Source: Clostridium sp. (GTDB lineage: Bacteria; Bacillota; Clostridia; TANB77; CAG-508). From it: a stretch of 64,000 bases of DNA. Of the stretch, positions 19,165 to 63,125 are shown piece after piece; the first letter of the stretch is position 1; each line of letters starts with the position of its first letter. The notes under the pieces were generated by a model that was not told the origin of the DNA, did no database searches, and was given only the letters and a program-made list of their open reading frames with translations. The stretch lies in NCBI GenBank assembly GCA_018371855.1, contig JAHAKD010000002.1:73850-137849 (forward strand). The letters are read 5' to 3'. Both the position numbers and the translations under genes were made by a program.

Positions 19165-19192
19165 GGGAAATTGGGACGTTCCTTAAATCCCG
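19165..19192 (+). repeat. copy 1 of GGGA-TTT...GGGACGTTCC...AAATCCCG hairpin element (gggaaattgggacgttccttaaatcccg)
   Basis: 8 nt after the U32 peptidase stop and 34 nt before the next start. Confidence 0.8.
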
Positions 19193-19225
19193 CTAGAAGA
19201 AAAAAACTAAAGATAAGGTGATAAT

Positions 19226-20233
19226 ATGGTTAGTCTGGATAAAGAAAAAATATTAGCGGAAGTAAAAAAAATAAAAGAAGGAAAAGAAGATCGAAGCAAA
19301 TTAAAAGAATTAATAGGTGGAGAAGAACTAGAAGAGATTTTCGATGAACAAACAATAAGTAAATTGCAAGATATGTTAATACGAACAAATAAAGTTCATG
19401 ATTTGTTGGAAGAACAAGAAGGTTTTGATATCCTGGAAGGTTTGTTAAATAAAAGAATAACGGGAAATTTAGGAAAGTTTTATAATATTAAACCGGAATA
19501 TATATTAAGTTTAAAACCAGAAGAGCAAGCTAAACTTGCGCATAATTTTTCTGAAGGAGAACCGGTCTTAGAAGAACTTTTAAAAAAATTATGGTCACAA
19601 AATATAAAGACAAATGCTTGTGCAGGAGAAAAAGACAATGCATATTTATATGTAACGTTCTCAAAAAGTGATATAAATAATATTTCTAGAATGGAAGAGG
19701 TTTCTTCTAAGGATGAAACAAATGTTGATATAACTACATATGAAGATAGTATTTCTATAACCTTATATGGAAAGAAACCAGATTTATATAAAGATTTATT
19801 AGCAGAATTTAGTAAAGAAGACAAACCGAATCAGTTTATAAAAGAATTAATGGATTCTCTGGCATTCGAAAGAGAAGTTGCAGAAGCTACAGTCAGAAAT
19901 AATAGCACTGGAAAATATTCAGAAGAAGAAGTAGAGGAAATAATAGCAAATACTGCAAAAGAACTCCATGACCAACATGAAGAAGAAAAGATAATTTTAA
20001 CTGATGTAATTAATAGGGGACAAGGAGAAATTAATAGATTAGAAGAAGAAAACGAAAAATTAAAACAAAAATGTGATAAATTACATGAAACGAATGGAAG
20101 ATTAAAAAATTTTGTAGTGCATAGAATTGGTAAAATTCCGTTTTTAGGTAGAAGAGTATTAAAACTTATGAATGCAGAAGTAAAAGCTTTACCAGAAACA
20201 ACAGATAAGCTAGATCATTCTGAAAGGGATTAA
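19226..20233 (+). CDS. hypothetical coiled-coil protein (335 aa)
   Basis: Acidic and coiled-coil rich; no family recognised. Confidence 0.4.
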   Translation: MVSLDKEKILAEVKKIKEGKEDRSKLKELIGGEELEEIFDEQTISKLQDMLIRTNKVHDLLEEQEGFDILEGLLNKRITGNLGKFYNIKPEYILSLKPEEQAKLAHNFSEGEPVLEELLKKLWSQNIKTNACAGEKDNAYLYVTFSKSDINNISRMEEVSSKDETNVDITTYEDSISITLYGKKPDLYKDLLAEFSKEDKPNQFIKELMDSLAFEREVAEATVRNNSTGKYSEEEVEEIIANTAKELHDQHEEEKIILTDVINRGQGEINRLEEENEKLKQKCDKLHETNGRLKNFVVHRIGKIPFLGRRVLKLMNAEVKALPETTDKLDHSERD

Positions 20234-20343
20234 AATTATAGATATTGTTAAATAAAAAGTCTTAAAATAAATTTACTAAAAGATATTTAAGCTTTAGAAA
20301 TTTAAATTAAGACTTTTTTATGGTTCTATTTATATATGTAATC

Positions 20344-60324: not shown

Positions 60325-60518
60325 TTAATTTCCTCCTTTGTGTCAAACCATAATTAATATATATACTATATCAAAATGGAAATAAATTCAATAGAAAAAA
60401 GACAAAAATATTATAAAGAAAATATTAAAAATTATTTGACAAAAATAAAAGTATAATGGATAATATAATAAGTTAAGTACGACAGATAAAACACGAAGAA
60501 ACTAAGGAGGAAATATTA

Positions 60519-63089
60519 ATGTATATATTTAATAAAATTACGGTGAATCCACAATTACCAAAAAGAGTAGGAAAATTATTAGATATTGCAAACAATTTAT
60601 GGTGGTCTTGGAATTCAGAATTTTTAAGACTATTTAAAGAAATTGATTCTGACTTATGGGAAACAGTTGGAAAAAATCCAGTTAAATTTTTAAAACTAGT
60701 TTCTCAAGATAAATTAGAAGATATAGCAAAGGATGAAGAATTCTTAGCAAAATATGATGAAGTTGTAAATCATTTTAATTCATACATGCAAACAAAAGAA
60801 ACATGGTTTTCTAAGAATTATCCTAATAATGCAAATGATTTAATTGCATATTTTTCAGCAGAATATGGTATAGATGAAATAATACCAATATATTCTGGGG
60901 GATTAGGAATACTTTCTGGAGACCATTTAAAATCTGCAAGCGATTTAGGTTTACCTTTTGTTGCTGTAGGTTTGTTATATAAAAATGGTTATTTTAACCA
61001 AAAAATAGATGGATATGGAACACAAAAAACTGAGTATACAAATATAGATTTAGATAATTTACCAATTTTACCAGTAAAAGATGAGAATGGTGAAGAGTTA
61101 ATAATAGATGTAGATTTTCCAGACAGAAAATTATATTTAAAGATATGGAAAATTGTTGTAGGTAGAATTTCTTTATATCTAATGGATTCAGATATAGATA
61201 AAAATATTGCAGAAGATAGAGTTGTTACACTAAGATTATATGGCGGAGATCAAGAGATGAGAATAAGACAAGAGATTGTCTTAGGTATGGCTGGTATTAA
61301 ATTATTAAAACGTTTAGGATTAAAACCAAGTGTATATCATATGAATGAAGGTCATTCTGCATTTTTAACATTAGAAGTAATAAAAGATGCAATCGAAGAA
61401 AAACAAGTATCATTCGAAGTTGCAAAATCAATATGTTCTGCTAGAACAGTATTTACAACACATACTCCAGTTCCAGCTGGAAATGATATATTCCCAATAG
61501 AACTAATGGATAAATATTTTTCTAACCTTTGGCCAAAACTTGGAATTTCTCGTGAAGATTTCTTAAGATTAGGAATGAAAAGTAGCCAAGGTTTAGAGCA
61601 AGGATTTAATATGGGAATGCTTGCATTAAGAATCGCAGGTAAAAAGAATGGTGTAAGTAAATTACATGGTGCAGTATCAAGAAGATTATTCTCAGATGTA
61701 TGGCCAAATATAGCACCAGATGAATCACCAATAGACTATGTAACAAATGGAATTCATACATGTTCATGGCTTGCTCCATCAATGAAAAAATTATTTAACC
61801 AATATTTAAAACCATATTGGCAAGATAATATTCAAGATGACGAAACATGGAATGATATTAAAAATATTCCAAACAAAGAGTTATGGGATACACATACAGA
61901 TAGAAAGAAAAAATTATTTGCTTTAGTAAAAAATAATATAACAACTAGACTAAAATCTAGTGGATATAATTATGAAGAAATAAATGAAATAGTTTCTAAA
62001 TTAAATCCAAATGCTTTAACAATTGGTTTTGCAAGAAGATTTGCTACATATAAGAGAGCAACATTAATATTTAGAGACATAGAAAGATTAACACAATTAT
62101 TAAACAATCCAGAAAGACCGGTTCAATTAATTTTCGCTGGTAAAGCACACCCAGCAGATAAAGAAGGTCAAGACTTAATAAGATATATCCACGAAGTTTC
62201 TATGAAACCTCAATTTAAAGGAAAAATATTCTTATTAGAAAATTATAATATTGCTATGTCAAGATATTTAATAAGTGGTGTTGATGTATGGCTTAATAAT
62301 CCAAGAAGACCAATGGAAGCTTCTGGTACAAGTGGACAAAAAGCATCTGTAAATGGTGTAATTAACTTTAGTGTACTAGATGGTTGGTGGGCTGAAGGAT
62401 ATAACCAAAAGAATGGATGGACAATAGGAGATAATACAGAATATCAATCTTATGAAGAGCAAGATATAGCAGATAGTGAAAGTTTATATAATACATTGGA
62501 AAACAAAATTATTCCTTTATATTATGAGAACAAAAAAGAAGATGGAGTATCTGATGCATGGATGGAAATGTTTAAAAATTCAATAATTTCTACTGGTGGA
62601 AGATATTCAACTTCAAGAATGGTAATAGATTATACAAGAGATTACTATATGGAACTTGCTAATTTATCTAAAAATCATTACCAAAACTTAGATGAAGTAA
62701 TTGACTTTACTAACTGGAAAAAGAATATGTATGCAAGTTGGAAAGACATTATAATTACACAAAATAATAATTTAGATAATATTACAATAGATGCAGGAAA
62801 CCAAATAGAAGTACATTGTATAGTAAATTTACCAGAAAATATAGATTGTAACTCAATTAGAACAGAAGTATATTATGGTAAAATATTAGAAAATGGAATT
62901 ATGGAGCAAATTCAAACTGTTCCAATGAATTTAGTAGAACAAGATGACGAAAATAGAGTATGTAAATATTCTGCTAAGATAGAACTAAAAACAGGTGGTA
63001 ACTATGGCTATACATTCAGAGCTATGCCACAAACAGATATGATGTTAGATACAGCTAATTTAGATTTAATACAATGGGTAACAAGATAG
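60519..63089 (+). CDS. glgP: alpha-glucan phosphorylase (GT35, maltodextrin/glycogen phosphorylase GlgP family)
   Basis: 856 aa, N-terminal DUF3417-like region (NLWWSWN); overall GT35 pattern. Confidence 0.85.
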   Translation: MYIFNKITVNPQLPKRVGKLLDIANNLWWSWNSEFLRLFKEIDSDLWETVGKNPVKFLKLVSQDKLEDIAKDEEFLAKYDEVVNHFNSYMQTKETWFSKNYPNNANDLIAYFSAEYGIDEIIPIYSGGLGILSGDHLKSASDLGLPFVAVGLLYKNGYFNQKIDGYGTQKTEYTNIDLDNLPILPVKDENGEELIIDVDFPDRKLYLKIWKIVVGRISLYLMDSDIDKNIAEDRVVTLRLYGGDQEMRIRQEIVLGMAGIKLLKRLGLKPSVYHMNEGHSAFLTLEVIKDAIEEKQVSFEVAKSICSARTVFTTHTPVPAGNDIFPIELMDKYFSNLWPKLGISREDFLRLGMKSSQGLEQGFNMGMLALRIAGKKNGVSKLHGAVSRRLFSDVWPNIAPDESPIDYVTNGIHTCSWLAPSMKKLFNQYLKPYWQDNIQDDETWNDIKNIPNKELWDTHTDRKKKLFALVKNNITTRLKSSGYNYEEINEIVSKLNPNALTIGFARRFATYKRATLIFRDIERLTQLLNNPERPVQLIFAGKAHPADKEGQDLIRYIHEVSMKPQFKGKIFLLENYNIAMSRYLISGVDVWLNNPRRPMEASGTSGQKASVNGVINFSVLDGWWAEGYNQKNGWTIGDNTEYQSYEEQDIADSESLYNTLENKIIPLYYENKKEDGVSDAWMEMFKNSIISTGGRYSTSRMVIDYTRDYYMELANLSKNHYQNLDEVIDFTNWKKNMYASWKDIIITQNNNLDNITIDAGNQIEVHCIVNLPENIDCNSIRTEVYYGKILENGIMEQIQTVPMNLVEQDDENRVCKYSAKIELKTGGNYGYTFRAMPQTDMMLDTANLDLIQWVTR

Positions 63090-63094
63090 ATATT

Positions 63095-63125
63095 GGGGAT
63101 TTTGGGGACGTTCCTAAAATCCCGA
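63095..63125 (+). repeat. copy 5 of the hairpin element (ggggattttggggacgttcctaaaatcccga)
   Basis: 6 nt after the glgP stop. Confidence 0.85.

What the first reader, a model, noticed from the sequence alone, without database searches (positions are those of the whole stretch)
19165..63125. Six copies of a ~30-bp hairpin element (GGGATTTTGGGGACGTTCCTTAAATCCCGA) placed just 3' of stop codons
Copies lie at 19165-19192, 29683-29709, 52446-52475, 56675-56697, 56779-56808 and 63095-63125. Each has a 7-bp outer stem (GGGATTT/AAATCCC) around a conserved CpG-containing core (GACGTTCC, or its inverse GGAACGTC in copies 2 and 4b). That core is conspicuous in a genome that is otherwise very AT-rich. As RNA the core can extend the stem through G:U pairs (GGGG-acg-UUCC), giving a 12-13 bp hairpin with no U-tract. 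Five of the six copies sit 0-25 nt after a plus-strand stop codon and 14-35 nt before the next RBS (after the U32 peptidase, DJ-1, ruvC, gpr and glgP genes). Copy 4b supplies the last 11 codons and the stop of a minus-strand gene. I do not recognise it as a named riboswitch, terminator or REP family. Candidate roles are a 3'-end stabilising or processing stem-loop, a binding site for a regulatory protein, or a REP/MITE-like repeat.
Basis: seen in the sequence. Interest (0 to 1): 0.7.

Follow-up and report, generated by a model that had tools for sequence, protein, structure and literature searches.

The report
REP-like palindromic repeats with cognate transposase
The six hairpins are copies of a dispersed "repetitive extragenic palindrome" family of an uncultured gut Clostridium, and in sister genomes the same hairpins flank a single-copy REP-type tyrosine transposase gene, so this is a new example of a known class of small bacterial repeat, not a new regulatory RNA.

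Summary
The core GACGTTCC occurs six times in the window against 0.1 expected, at the stated coordinates. Three copies are intact or nearly intact hairpins (19165, 52446, 63096). Three are decayed (29680, 56673, 56777).

About 94% of copies are intergenic although 87% of the DNA is ORF.

The element has polarity. One strand forms a 12-bp stem with two G·T pairs and a 3-nt loop. The other strand has two A·C mismatches. Copies also occur as convergent pairs inside 110-150-bp composite palindromes, as tandem half-unit arrays and as clusters.

In a sister genome (93-96% identical DNA) two inverted copies flank a 261-aa HUH/Tyr protein. Its best sequence and structure matches are E. coli TnpA-REP (PDB 4ER8). 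Homologs 45-59% identical sit in one syntenic locus and are flanked the same way.

It is therefore a REP/TIR repeat family with a cognate RAYT/TIRYT-type transposase. There is no Rfam match and no U-tract in the window copies. Any terminator or mRNA-stabilising role is secondary and untested. It is a new member of a known kind, of moderate interest.

The parts
19165..19191 (+). REP copy 1, palindromic subfamily with an imperfect left arm (GGGAAAT). It lies 7 nt after the U32 peptidase stop and 34 nt before the next ATG.
   Evidence: nhmmer 22.6 bits; RNA fold -13.9 kcal/mol
29680..29709 (-). REP copy 2, a decayed member of the T-run subfamily (TCGGGATTTAGTGACGTTCCTTTTTTCCTA on the minus strand). 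It is antisense to the flanking genes. Its TAG supplies the DJ-1 stop codon, and the next RBS follows directly.
   Evidence: 11.5 bits; does not fold
52444..52475 (+). REP copy 3, intact (TAGGGATTTTGGGGACGTTCCTTAAATCCCGA). It lies 8 nt after the ruvC stop and about 10 nt before the holA start region. It is identical in the orthologous site of UMGS1570 (L091).
   Evidence: (39.6 bits)
56673..56702 (+). REP copy 4, decayed T-run subfamily, 22 nt after the gpr stop. The ortholog in L091 is better preserved (GGGAAATGGGGACGTTCTTTTTTTCCC).
   Evidence: (11.1 bits)
56777..56808 (-). REP copy 5, partly decayed palindromic copy in the sense orientation of the minus-strand ytxC gene. It encodes about 10 of that gene's last codons. 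With copy 4 it forms a convergent pair around a separate terminator hairpin.
   Evidence: (20.1 bits)
63094..63125 (+). REP copy 6, intact, 6 nt after the glgP stop. Flanking bases extend the stem (RNA -19.3 kcal/mol, z -3.7).
   Evidence: (38.6 bits)

Best explanation
The hairpins are members of a REP-type (repetitive extragenic palindrome / self-complementary TIR) family of non-autonomous repeats. The family is specific to a clade of low-GC uncultured gut Clostridia (CAG:354, UMGS1570 and relatives).

The unit is about 27-35 nt: (aaTA)GGGATTT-n-GGGGA-CGT-TCCTT-AAATCCC(TAtt). It has a fixed polarity. One DNA strand forms a 12-bp stem with two G·T pairs. The other strand has A·C mismatches.

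Units occur in four arrangements:
- as solo copies;
- as convergent doublets inside 110-150-bp composite palindromes that carry an inner GGGGACAS inverted repeat (REPIN/MITE-like);
- as tandem half-unit arrays;
- as mixed clusters (BIME-like).

The cognate enzyme is a single-copy, vertically inherited HUH/Tyr (Y1) protein of the TnpA-REP (RAYT/TIRYT) type with a C-terminal helix-turn-helix extension. Its gene sits between inverted copies of the repeat.

Inferred mechanism, by analogy with E. coli TnpA-REP and IS200/IS605: the enzyme recognises the folded hairpin on one DNA strand while it is single-stranded, for example at the replication fork. It then cleaves and rejoins the DNA through a phosphotyrosine intermediate. 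This disseminates and reshuffles the repeats, and selection leaves them only in the short intergenic spacers.

Shown here: the family, its anatomy and polarity, its intergenic restriction, the link to the transposase, synteny, and site polymorphism. Inferred: catalysis, strand choice, and any host-level effect. Possible host effects are a 3' hairpin on the mRNA, partial termination, or ribosome stalling when the hairpin is 15 nt or less from the stop.
For: Chance is excluded.

**Distribution.** The genome-collection scan found the full palindrome in 114 blocks. The window is 96.6% identical to UMGS1570 and 93-96% identical to bin.23.

**Polarity.** The core is asymmetric in 125 of 128 perfect copies.

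**Location.** Of 175 HMM hits at 18 bits or more, 154 had genes on both sides. Of those 154, about 94% are intergenic, against 13% non-ORF DNA.

**Arrangement.** Close pairs are almost all convergent and belong to composite palindromes. The composite folds at DNA -43.5 kcal/mol, z -12.

**Transposase.**
- L061:273-1058 encodes a 261-aa protein that matches Pfam Y1_Tnp at E 4.6e-10.
- Its best NCBIfam match is 'REP-associated tyrosine transposase', E 2e-18, against 0.004 for IS200.
- H61, H63 and Y121 are invariant, with the motif YIHxNPVKAG.
- The best PDB profile hit is 4ER8 TnpArep.
- The AF2 model (pLDDT 82.6) has 4ER8_A as its top Foldseek hit, E 1.5e-7 and TM 0.70, against about 1e-4 for IS608 and ISDra2 TnpA.
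- The gene is flanked by a '+' repeat upstream and a '-' repeat downstream.
- The same flanking holds for homologs of 59, 54, 53 and 45% identity. These sit in a syntenic locus: holB, PSP1, ferredoxin, the RAYT gene, then the 2-oxoacid:ferredoxin oxidoreductase operon on the opposite strand.

**Signs of copying and turnover.**
- Loop variants are lineage-specific: CGT, CGG, CAT.
- A copied subfamily has a broken stem, TTTTTTCCC.
- Presence/absence and unit-number polymorphisms occur at orthologous sites.

**Literature.** The TIRtron/TIRYT class has the TIR motif GGGGWSAS (PMC3733652). TnpA-REP subclass 2.1 has a C-terminal HTH (PMC6006769).
Against: - No RAYT gene lies in the window itself. 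The link rests on sister genomes.
- The NCBIfam score of 66.7 is below the curated cut-off of 80.
- There is no conserved unpaired GTAG or CGTC tag at the foot of the hairpin.
- No target-site signature was found.
- Mobility is inferred from polymorphism, not seen directly.
- The sense bias is 62 to 38, and sense copies sit close to stop codons. In other MAGs a T-rich tract follows the hairpin. Some selection for an RNA-level role is therefore possible.
- The locus counts include orthologous sites from related MAGs, so they are not fully independent.
Confidence: 0.8

Rival explanations
1. The hairpins are primarily functional RNA elements selected at gene 3' ends. They would act as U-tract-poor terminators, attenuators within operons, or 3' stem-loops that protect upstream mRNA from exonucleases.
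For: - Sense-oriented copies begin a median of 7 nt after stop codons, at relative position 0.06 in the spacer.
- The sense to antisense ratio is 62:38, p = 0.02.
- The G·U-containing strand folds better as RNA: -13.2 against -10.8 kcal/mol.
- A T-rich tract follows the hairpin in many copies of other MAGs.
- E. coli REPs are reported to stabilise mRNA and to stall ribosomes near stop codons (cited in PMC12306157).
Against: - 38% of tandem-context copies are antisense.
- None of the window copies is called terminator-like. Genes restart 10-35 nt downstream.
- The loop and stem sequence is conserved rather than the structure. A broken-stem subfamily (17 of 168) is propagated as sequence.
- Composite palindromes, tandem half-units and the flanking of a transposase gene are not explained.
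- Three of the six window copies are decaying.
Confidence: 0.1
2. The palindrome is the operator of a dimeric DNA-binding regulator, or some other chromosomal protein site such as a nucleoid or partition site. It would define a large regulon or structural array.
For: It is a 28-bp near-perfect dyad with a conserved ACGT-centred core. The RAYT-family protein itself carries a C-terminal HTH that could bind duplex DNA.
Against: - Sites lie downstream of genes rather than at promoters, next to unrelated housekeeping genes.
- The two half-sites are consistently asymmetric (GGGAC/GGAAC) in 125 of 128 perfect copies, which a symmetric dimer does not require.
- Copy number is of the order of one per 10 kb.
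- The doublets, arrays and decay are typical of repeats.
Confidence: 0.04
3. It is a classical MITE derived from a DDE-type insertion sequence, with terminal inverted repeats and target-site duplications.
For: The composites of 110-150 bp (one of about 320 bp) are long inverted repeats with variable inner cargo.
Against: - No target-site duplications are visible at the composite ends or at polymorphic sites.
- The only transposase found between inverted copies is a Y1 HUH enzyme.
- No DDE transposase was seen among the ORFs flanked by pairs.
Confidence: 0.03

Closest known systems
REP / REPIN-RAYT systems (E. coli REP-BIME with TnpA-REP, PDB 4ER8; Pseudomonas REPINs)
   Same: - Short imperfect palindromes at high copy number, almost only extragenic and often just after stop codons.
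- Doublets in inverted orientation, and clusters.
- A single-copy, vertically inherited HUH/Tyr gene flanked by inverted copies.
- The protein's best sequence-profile and structural match is TnpA-REP.
   Different: - No unpaired GTAG tag at the foot of the hairpin. The flanks extend the stem instead.
- The protein is about 100 aa longer, with a C-terminal HTH-like domain.
- The host is a Firmicute (Clostridia). Published REP-rich RAYT groups 2 and 3 are described mainly from Proteobacteria such as Escherichia and Pseudomonas (PMC5581495), and the 2013 survey of tagged REPs does not mention Firmicutes (PMC3733652).
- The NCBIfam REP_Tyr_transpos score is below the cut-off.
TIRtrons / TIRYT (Di Nocera et al. 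2013), equivalent to TnpA-REP subclass 2.1 (Quentin et al. 2018)
   Same: - A RAYT-like protein with a C-terminal HTH.
- Flanking inverted repeats that carry the motif GGGGWSAS. Here the inner repeat reads GGGGACAG or GGGGACAC, and the hairpin core GGGGACGT is one base off.
- Some TIRs in that class are self-complementary, moderately repeated, and organised as dimers or clusters.
   Different: - Here the repeat nearest the gene is a compact stand-alone hairpin at REP-like density, about one per 10 kb.
- Quentin et al. report finding no REP-like sequences near subclass 2.1 genes.
- Placement of this protein in subclass 2.1 was not tested phylogenetically.
IS200/IS605 family ends (IS608, ISDra2)
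   Same: Subterminal imperfect hairpins are recognised on one DNA strand by a Y1 HUH transposase. The protein shares the fold (Foldseek E about 1e-4).
   Different: - The gene is single-copy and syntenic, not multi-copy.
- The hairpins far outnumber the gene.
- There is no TnpB partner.
- The IS200 model matches only at E 0.004.
Rho-independent terminators
   Same: A G+C-rich hairpin just after stop codons. A T-rich tract follows many copies in related MAGs.
   Different: The sequence, including the loop, is conserved across hundreds of sites. The window copies lack a U-tract, and many copies are antisense or sit directly in front of an RBS.

Membership tests
REP/REPIN-RAYT system | Short (20-40 bp) imperfect palindromic repeat | tested here: met
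   27-29-nt unit with a 12-bp stem (two G·T pairs) and a 3-nt loop.
REP/REPIN-RAYT system | Many dispersed copies, predominantly extragenic | tested here: met
   Six copies in 64 kb. The scan returned 114 blocks or more across about 30 MAGs. About 94% of hits are intergenic against 13% non-ORF DNA.
REP/REPIN-RAYT system | RAYT gene flanked by the repeats in inverted orientation (REPtron) | tested here: met
   Seen in L061 and L125-L130, L131/132, L133/134, L135/136 and L137/138. These are sister or related genomes. The window itself has no RAYT.
REP/REPIN-RAYT system | Protein is a Y1 HUH enzyme closer to TnpA-REP than to IS200 TnpA | tested here: met
   - Pfam Y1_Tnp.
- NCBIfam REP_Tyr_transpos at E 2e-18, which is below the curated cut-off (66.7 against 80), compared with IS200 at E 0.004.
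- PDB profile best hit 4ER8.
- Foldseek top hit 4ER8_A at E 1.5e-7.
- Invariant H61, H63 and Y121.
REP/REPIN-RAYT system | Conserved unpaired GTAG (or CGTC) tetranucleotide at one end of the hairpin | tested here: not met
   The flanks are aaTA|GGG...CCC|TAtt or TC|...|GA, and they pair with each other. CGTC is present only in the apical part of the complementary strand.
REP/REPIN-RAYT system | Inverted doublets (REPINs) and clusters (BIME-like) | tested here: met
   13 of 14 pairs spaced 25-300 nt apart are convergent. They lie in 110-150-bp composite palindromes. Tandem half-unit arrays also occur.
REP/REPIN-RAYT system | RAYT is single-copy and vertically inherited | tested here: met
   P0001 lies in the same locus in the 23 contigs read. 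Four homologs of 45-59% identity lie in one syntenic locus. Copy number per complete genome could not be checked.
REP/REPIN-RAYT system | Enzyme binds and cleaves the hairpin as single-stranded DNA; repeats are mobile | not testable with these tools
   Only indirect evidence: presence/absence and unit-number polymorphisms at orthologous sites.
TIRtron/TIRYT (TnpA-REP subclass 2.1) | C-terminal helix-turn-helix extension | tested here: inconclusive
   A helical C-terminal domain spans residues 187-260 of the model. Matches are weak: Sigma70_r4, HTH_19, HTH_3 and HTH_23 in 3-15 of 56 members, and a PDB sigma region 4 hit at E 0.15.
TIRtron/TIRYT (TnpA-REP subclass 2.1) | Flanking inverted repeats with the motif GGGGWSAS | tested here: met
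   The inner repeats read GGGGACAG or GGGGACAC in most composites (L108, L111, L023, L120) and GGGACAGT or GGGACACT, one G short of the motif, in others including next to the RAYT gene in L137. The hairpin core GGGGACGT differs at one position.
TIRtron/TIRYT (TnpA-REP subclass 2.1) | Phylogenetic placement within subclass 2.1 | not tested
Intrinsic terminator | G+C-rich stem-loop followed directly by a U-tract | tested here: not met
   The consensus scan calls none of the window copies in 50000-64000. It does call the separate hairpin at 56726-56759. Copies in other MAGs often have a T-rich 3' flank.
Rfam RNA families | Match at gathering score | tested here: not met
   The only match in the window is 6S RNA. 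The hairpin and the composite give only sub-threshold generic-hairpin hits.
DDE-type MITE | Terminal inverted repeats plus target-site duplication | tested here: not met
   No TSD at the composite ends or at polymorphic sites.

The most novel reading that the evidence does not exclude
This may be the first high-copy REP/REPIN-type population documented in Firmicutes. It is tied to an HTH-bearing TnpA-REP (subclass 2.1/TIRYT-like) enzyme, a subclass for which published surveys found no REP association. The two-layer composite (stand-alone hairpin plus inner GGGGWSAS repeat) would then be a structural bridge between REPtrons and TIRtrons. In this small, AT-rich genome the hairpins fill stop-to-RBS spacers, so they may also have been co-opted as operon punctuation, affecting mRNA 3' ends or translation termination.
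Probability: 0.35. Interest if true: 0.5.

Novelty: new member of a known kind. Interest (0 to 1): 0.35.

Why it matters
It extends REP/RAYT-type 'domesticated transposase plus hairpin repeat' systems to uncultured gut Clostridia. It also ties a hairpin repeat to an HTH-bearing TnpA-REP relative, a group so far described as TIR-associated or REP-less.

Practical uses:
- It explains a conspicuous G+C-rich motif in these AT-rich MAGs.
- It warns annotators against calling these hairpins riboswitches or terminators.
- It gives a marker for strain typing and for assembly breakpoints in this clade.
- It supplies a compact hairpin/enzyme pair for biochemical tests of strand-specific recognition.

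Tried and rejected
- **One-arm pattern against viral contigs.** It gave 10 chance hits in high-GC contigs with no palindrome. Dropped.
- **tblastn with an IS200 TnpA sequence recalled from memory.** It found nothing in the loci.
- **phmmer of the RAYT against PDB.** It found nothing. A profile was needed.
- **Genes flanked by '+/-' repeat pairs at 0.3-3 kb.** Most are ordinary housekeeping genes such as aminotransferase, TyrRS, NUDIX and YqeY. Such pairs do not mark mobile cargo. Only one ORF was the transposase.
- **Orientation relative to replication.** This could not be separated from gene orientation, because GC skew at 8 kb follows gene strand.
- **Stem covariation.** It is weak. The (-1,+1) flank pair shows an A-T/C-G association (odds ratio 3.1, p = 0.006), but the arms are nearly invariant or broken. 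I do not claim structural covariation.
- **Inner-repeat motif GGGACASTCC.** It is absent from the window.
- **Rejected readings.** CRISPR repeats (copies are solitary and dispersed) and tRNA-derived elements (no tRNAs) were rejected. DNA uptake sequences were considered but not tested, and nothing here supports them.

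
Full report
**1. Observation**

The 8-mer GACGTTCC occurs six times in the window (19175+, 29690-, 52457+, 56685+, 56789-, 63107+) against 0.10 expected from dinucleotide-preserving shuffles.

Read on the plus strand, all six copies have the form TAGGGATTTTGGGRACGTYCCTWAAATCCCGA. 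The window is about 27% G+C, so the element stands out.

Positions relative to genes are as described:
- Copies 1, 3 and 6 begin 6-8 nt after the stop codons of the U32 peptidase, RuvC and GlgP ORFs.
- Copy 4 begins 22 nt after the stop codon of the Gpr ORF.
- The TAG at the start of copy 2 is the DJ-1 stop codon.
- Copy 5 overlaps the last codons of the minus-strand ytxC gene (...ESRDVPKNPYLQ*). That stop codon lies 9 nt outside the hairpin.

Only copies 1, 3 and 6 fold as proposed. Copy 2 does not fold, and copies 4 and 5 are degraded.

**2. What the element is like**

All came from about 30 low-GC 'uncultured Clostridium sp./Clostridia bacterium' gut MAGs, including CAG:354_28_25, UMGS1570, ERR3414582_bin.23 and BRZ_CR bin60. 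The window is 96.6% identical to a UMGS1570 contig and 93-96% identical to a bin.23 contig.

*Polarity.* Among the 128 perfect copies scored (of 129 found), the core is GGGACGTTCC or its reverse complement in 125. It is almost never the symmetric GGGACGTCCC or GGAACGTTCC. On one strand the unit forms a 12-bp stem with two G·T(U) pairs and a 3-nt loop: GGGATTTGGGGA-CGT-TCCTTAAATCCC. The other strand has two A·C mismatches.

*Flanks and loop.* The flanks extend the stem (aaTA...TAtt or TC...GA). They carry no conserved unpaired tag. Loop bases differ between lineages: CGT, CGG, CAT.

*Location.* An nhmmer profile found 175 hits of 18 bits or more in 876 kb. Of the 154 with genes on both sides, about 94% are intergenic although 87% of the DNA is ORF. 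In tandem gene contexts 62 copies are sense and 38 antisense. Sense copies sit close to the stop codon (median 7 nt). Antisense copies lie nearer the next start.

*Higher-order arrangements.*
- Pairs 25-300 nt apart are convergent in 13 of 14 cases.
- These pairs are the outer parts of 110-150-bp composite palindromes: hairpin, T-rich spacer, inner repeat (GGGATTAGGGGACAGTCC...GGACTGTCCCCTAATCCC), spacer, inverted hairpin.
- The composites occur in tandem as well as convergent spacers and often fill the gap from stop codon to RBS. One folds at -43.5 kcal/mol as DNA, z -12.
- There are also tandem arrays of an 18-19-nt half-unit and mixed clusters.
- A subfamily with a broken stem (GGGATTTGGGGACGTTCC-TTTTTTCCC) makes up 17 of 168 copies. 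It must have spread as sequence rather than by selection for structure.
- Window copies 2 and 4 belong to this subfamily.

**3. The associated gene**

I looked at ORFs lying between '+...-' repeat pairs. One of them, L061:273-1058 in bin.23, encodes a 261-aa protein with these properties:
- It matches Pfam Y1_Tnp at E 4.6e-10.
- Its best NCBIfam model is 'REP-associated tyrosine transposase' at E 2e-18. The score of 66.7 bits is below the 80-bit cut-off. The IS200 model matches only at E 0.004.
- A repeat lies about 155 nt upstream on the plus strand and another lies 15 nt after the stop codon on the minus strand.
- The HUH histidines (H61, H63), Y121 in the motif YIHxNPVKAG and a YxYSS motif are invariant or nearly invariant in 56 homologs.
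- A profile search of PDB gives E. coli TnpArep (4ER8) as the best hit.
- An AlphaFold model (pLDDT 82.6) has 4ER8_A, 'REP associated tyrosine transposase bound to a REP hairpin', as its top Foldseek match at E 1.5e-7 and TM 0.70. IS608 and ISDra2 TnpA follow at about 1e-4.
- Residues 187-260 form a helical C-terminal domain. Across the family it has weak HTH and sigma-70 region 4 matches.

The identical protein lies in the same locus in the 23 contigs read. Homologs of 59, 54, 53 and 45% identity all sit in one syntenic locus: holB, PSP1, ferredoxin, the RAYT gene, then the 2-oxoacid:ferredoxin oxidoreductase operon on the opposite strand. Each is bracketed by '+' repeats upstream and '-' repeats downstream.

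In L137 the order is hairpin, hairpin, inner-left repeat, gene, inner-right repeat, hairpin, hairpin. The composite palindromes therefore look like gene-less derivatives of this unit. No homolog lies in the window.

**4. Turnover**

- At the site equivalent to window position 43822, bin.23 has a perfect copy directly after the stop codon. The window has an ordinary terminator there.
- The UMGS1570 orthologs of copies 4 and 5 are better preserved than the window's.
- Other orthologous spacers differ by whole units.
- One species has a copy, with an RBS, inserted between two cistrons that abut in another species.

**5. Interpretation**

The anatomy, distribution and gene association match REP/REPIN-RAYT systems. 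More specifically they match the TIRtron/TIRYT variant:
- Di Nocera et al. describe RAYT-like genes flanked by inverted repeats with the motif GGGGWSAS. Some of those repeats are self-complementary, moderately repeated, and arranged in dimers or clusters (PMC3733652, section 16).
- Quentin et al. equate these with TnpA-REP subclass 2.1, which carries a C-terminal HTH. They note that they found no REP-like sequences near those genes (PMC6006769, section 20).
- Bertels et al. mention that RAYT Group 1 occurs in Clostridia, but that only Groups 2 and 3 are strongly REP-associated (PMC5581495).

Here the inner repeat fits GGGGWSAS (GGGGACAG or GGGGACAC) and the hairpin core is one base off.

The likely mechanism is recognition of the folded hairpin on one DNA strand by the HUH/Tyr enzyme, followed by cleavage and rejoining. 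This is inferred from E. coli TnpA-REP and IS200/IS605, not shown here.

RNA-level effects are plausible by analogy with E. coli REPs (reviewed in PMC12306157). They include 3' protection, partial termination, and ribosome stalling when the hairpin is close to the stop codon. They are untested. The terminator scan calls none of the window copies, and Rfam has no match.

**6. Verdict**

This is a new member of a known kind, in a phylum and enzyme subclass where such repeat populations have been little described. No paper in the searchable library mentions the motif as a bacterial repeat. Interest is moderate.

Noticed in passing
window 33996-34189 (+): A full-length 6S (SsrS) RNA gene: Rfam RF00013, 103 bits, E 1.3e-19.
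   Followed up: no
window 51935-52045 (ruvC) and 52484-52540 (holA): Both genes appear to carry a 1-nt frameshift. The ruvC reading MRILGIDPGFAIT... runs into a stop and continues in the next frame. In holA the N-terminus (MNMLIEELEKELR...) shifts frame at an A5 run. The UMGS1570 ortholog (L091) has no indel relative to the window here, so the shifts are shared by two independent assemblies.
   Followed up: partly
window 56726-56759: A separate 14-bp palindrome (TATAGCAAATTGGC...GCCAATTTGCTATA) has an A-run on one side and a T-run on the other. It sits between REP copies 4 and 5 and looks like the real bidirectional terminator of the convergent gpr and ytxC genes.
   Followed up: partly
window 43822-46437 vs L088 2383-2660: There is a 2.6-kb replacement between the window and the bin.23 genome. 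The window has three extra ORFs (43885-44592 minus strand, 44827-45936 plus strand, 45884-46351 plus strand). In the same place bin.23 has 278 bp that begin with a perfect REP copy. The function of the extra genes was not examined.
   Followed up: no
L066 1700-3000: A paralogous RAYT-like gene, 35% identical to P0001, lies in another MAG. It is preceded by a different hairpin (AATGTCCCCA...TGGGGACATT) that also carries the GGGGAC motif. This may be a second repeat/enzyme pair.
   Followed up: partly
L061 95-140; L131 9818-9860: Directly downstream of the upstream REP of the RAYT gene lies an inverted partial copy (TTTTAAAGAACGTC). It can pair with the 3' half of the REP and form an alternative hairpin. 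It is conserved between RAYT loci whose proteins are 59% identical, so it may regulate the gene.
   Followed up: no
L098 255-345; L075 1660-1720; L096 2500-2620: Tandem arrays of the 18-19-nt half-unit (GGGAYWTTGGGACRTTCC), repeated three to four times and ending in a TTTTTTCCC closer. Their origin is unexplained; slippage or repeated nicking are possibilities.
   Followed up: partly
L091 (ortholog of window 52435): UMGS1570 has a 12-nt tandem duplication (TAATAGGAATAG) immediately upstream of REP copy 3. The window lacks it.
   Followed up: no
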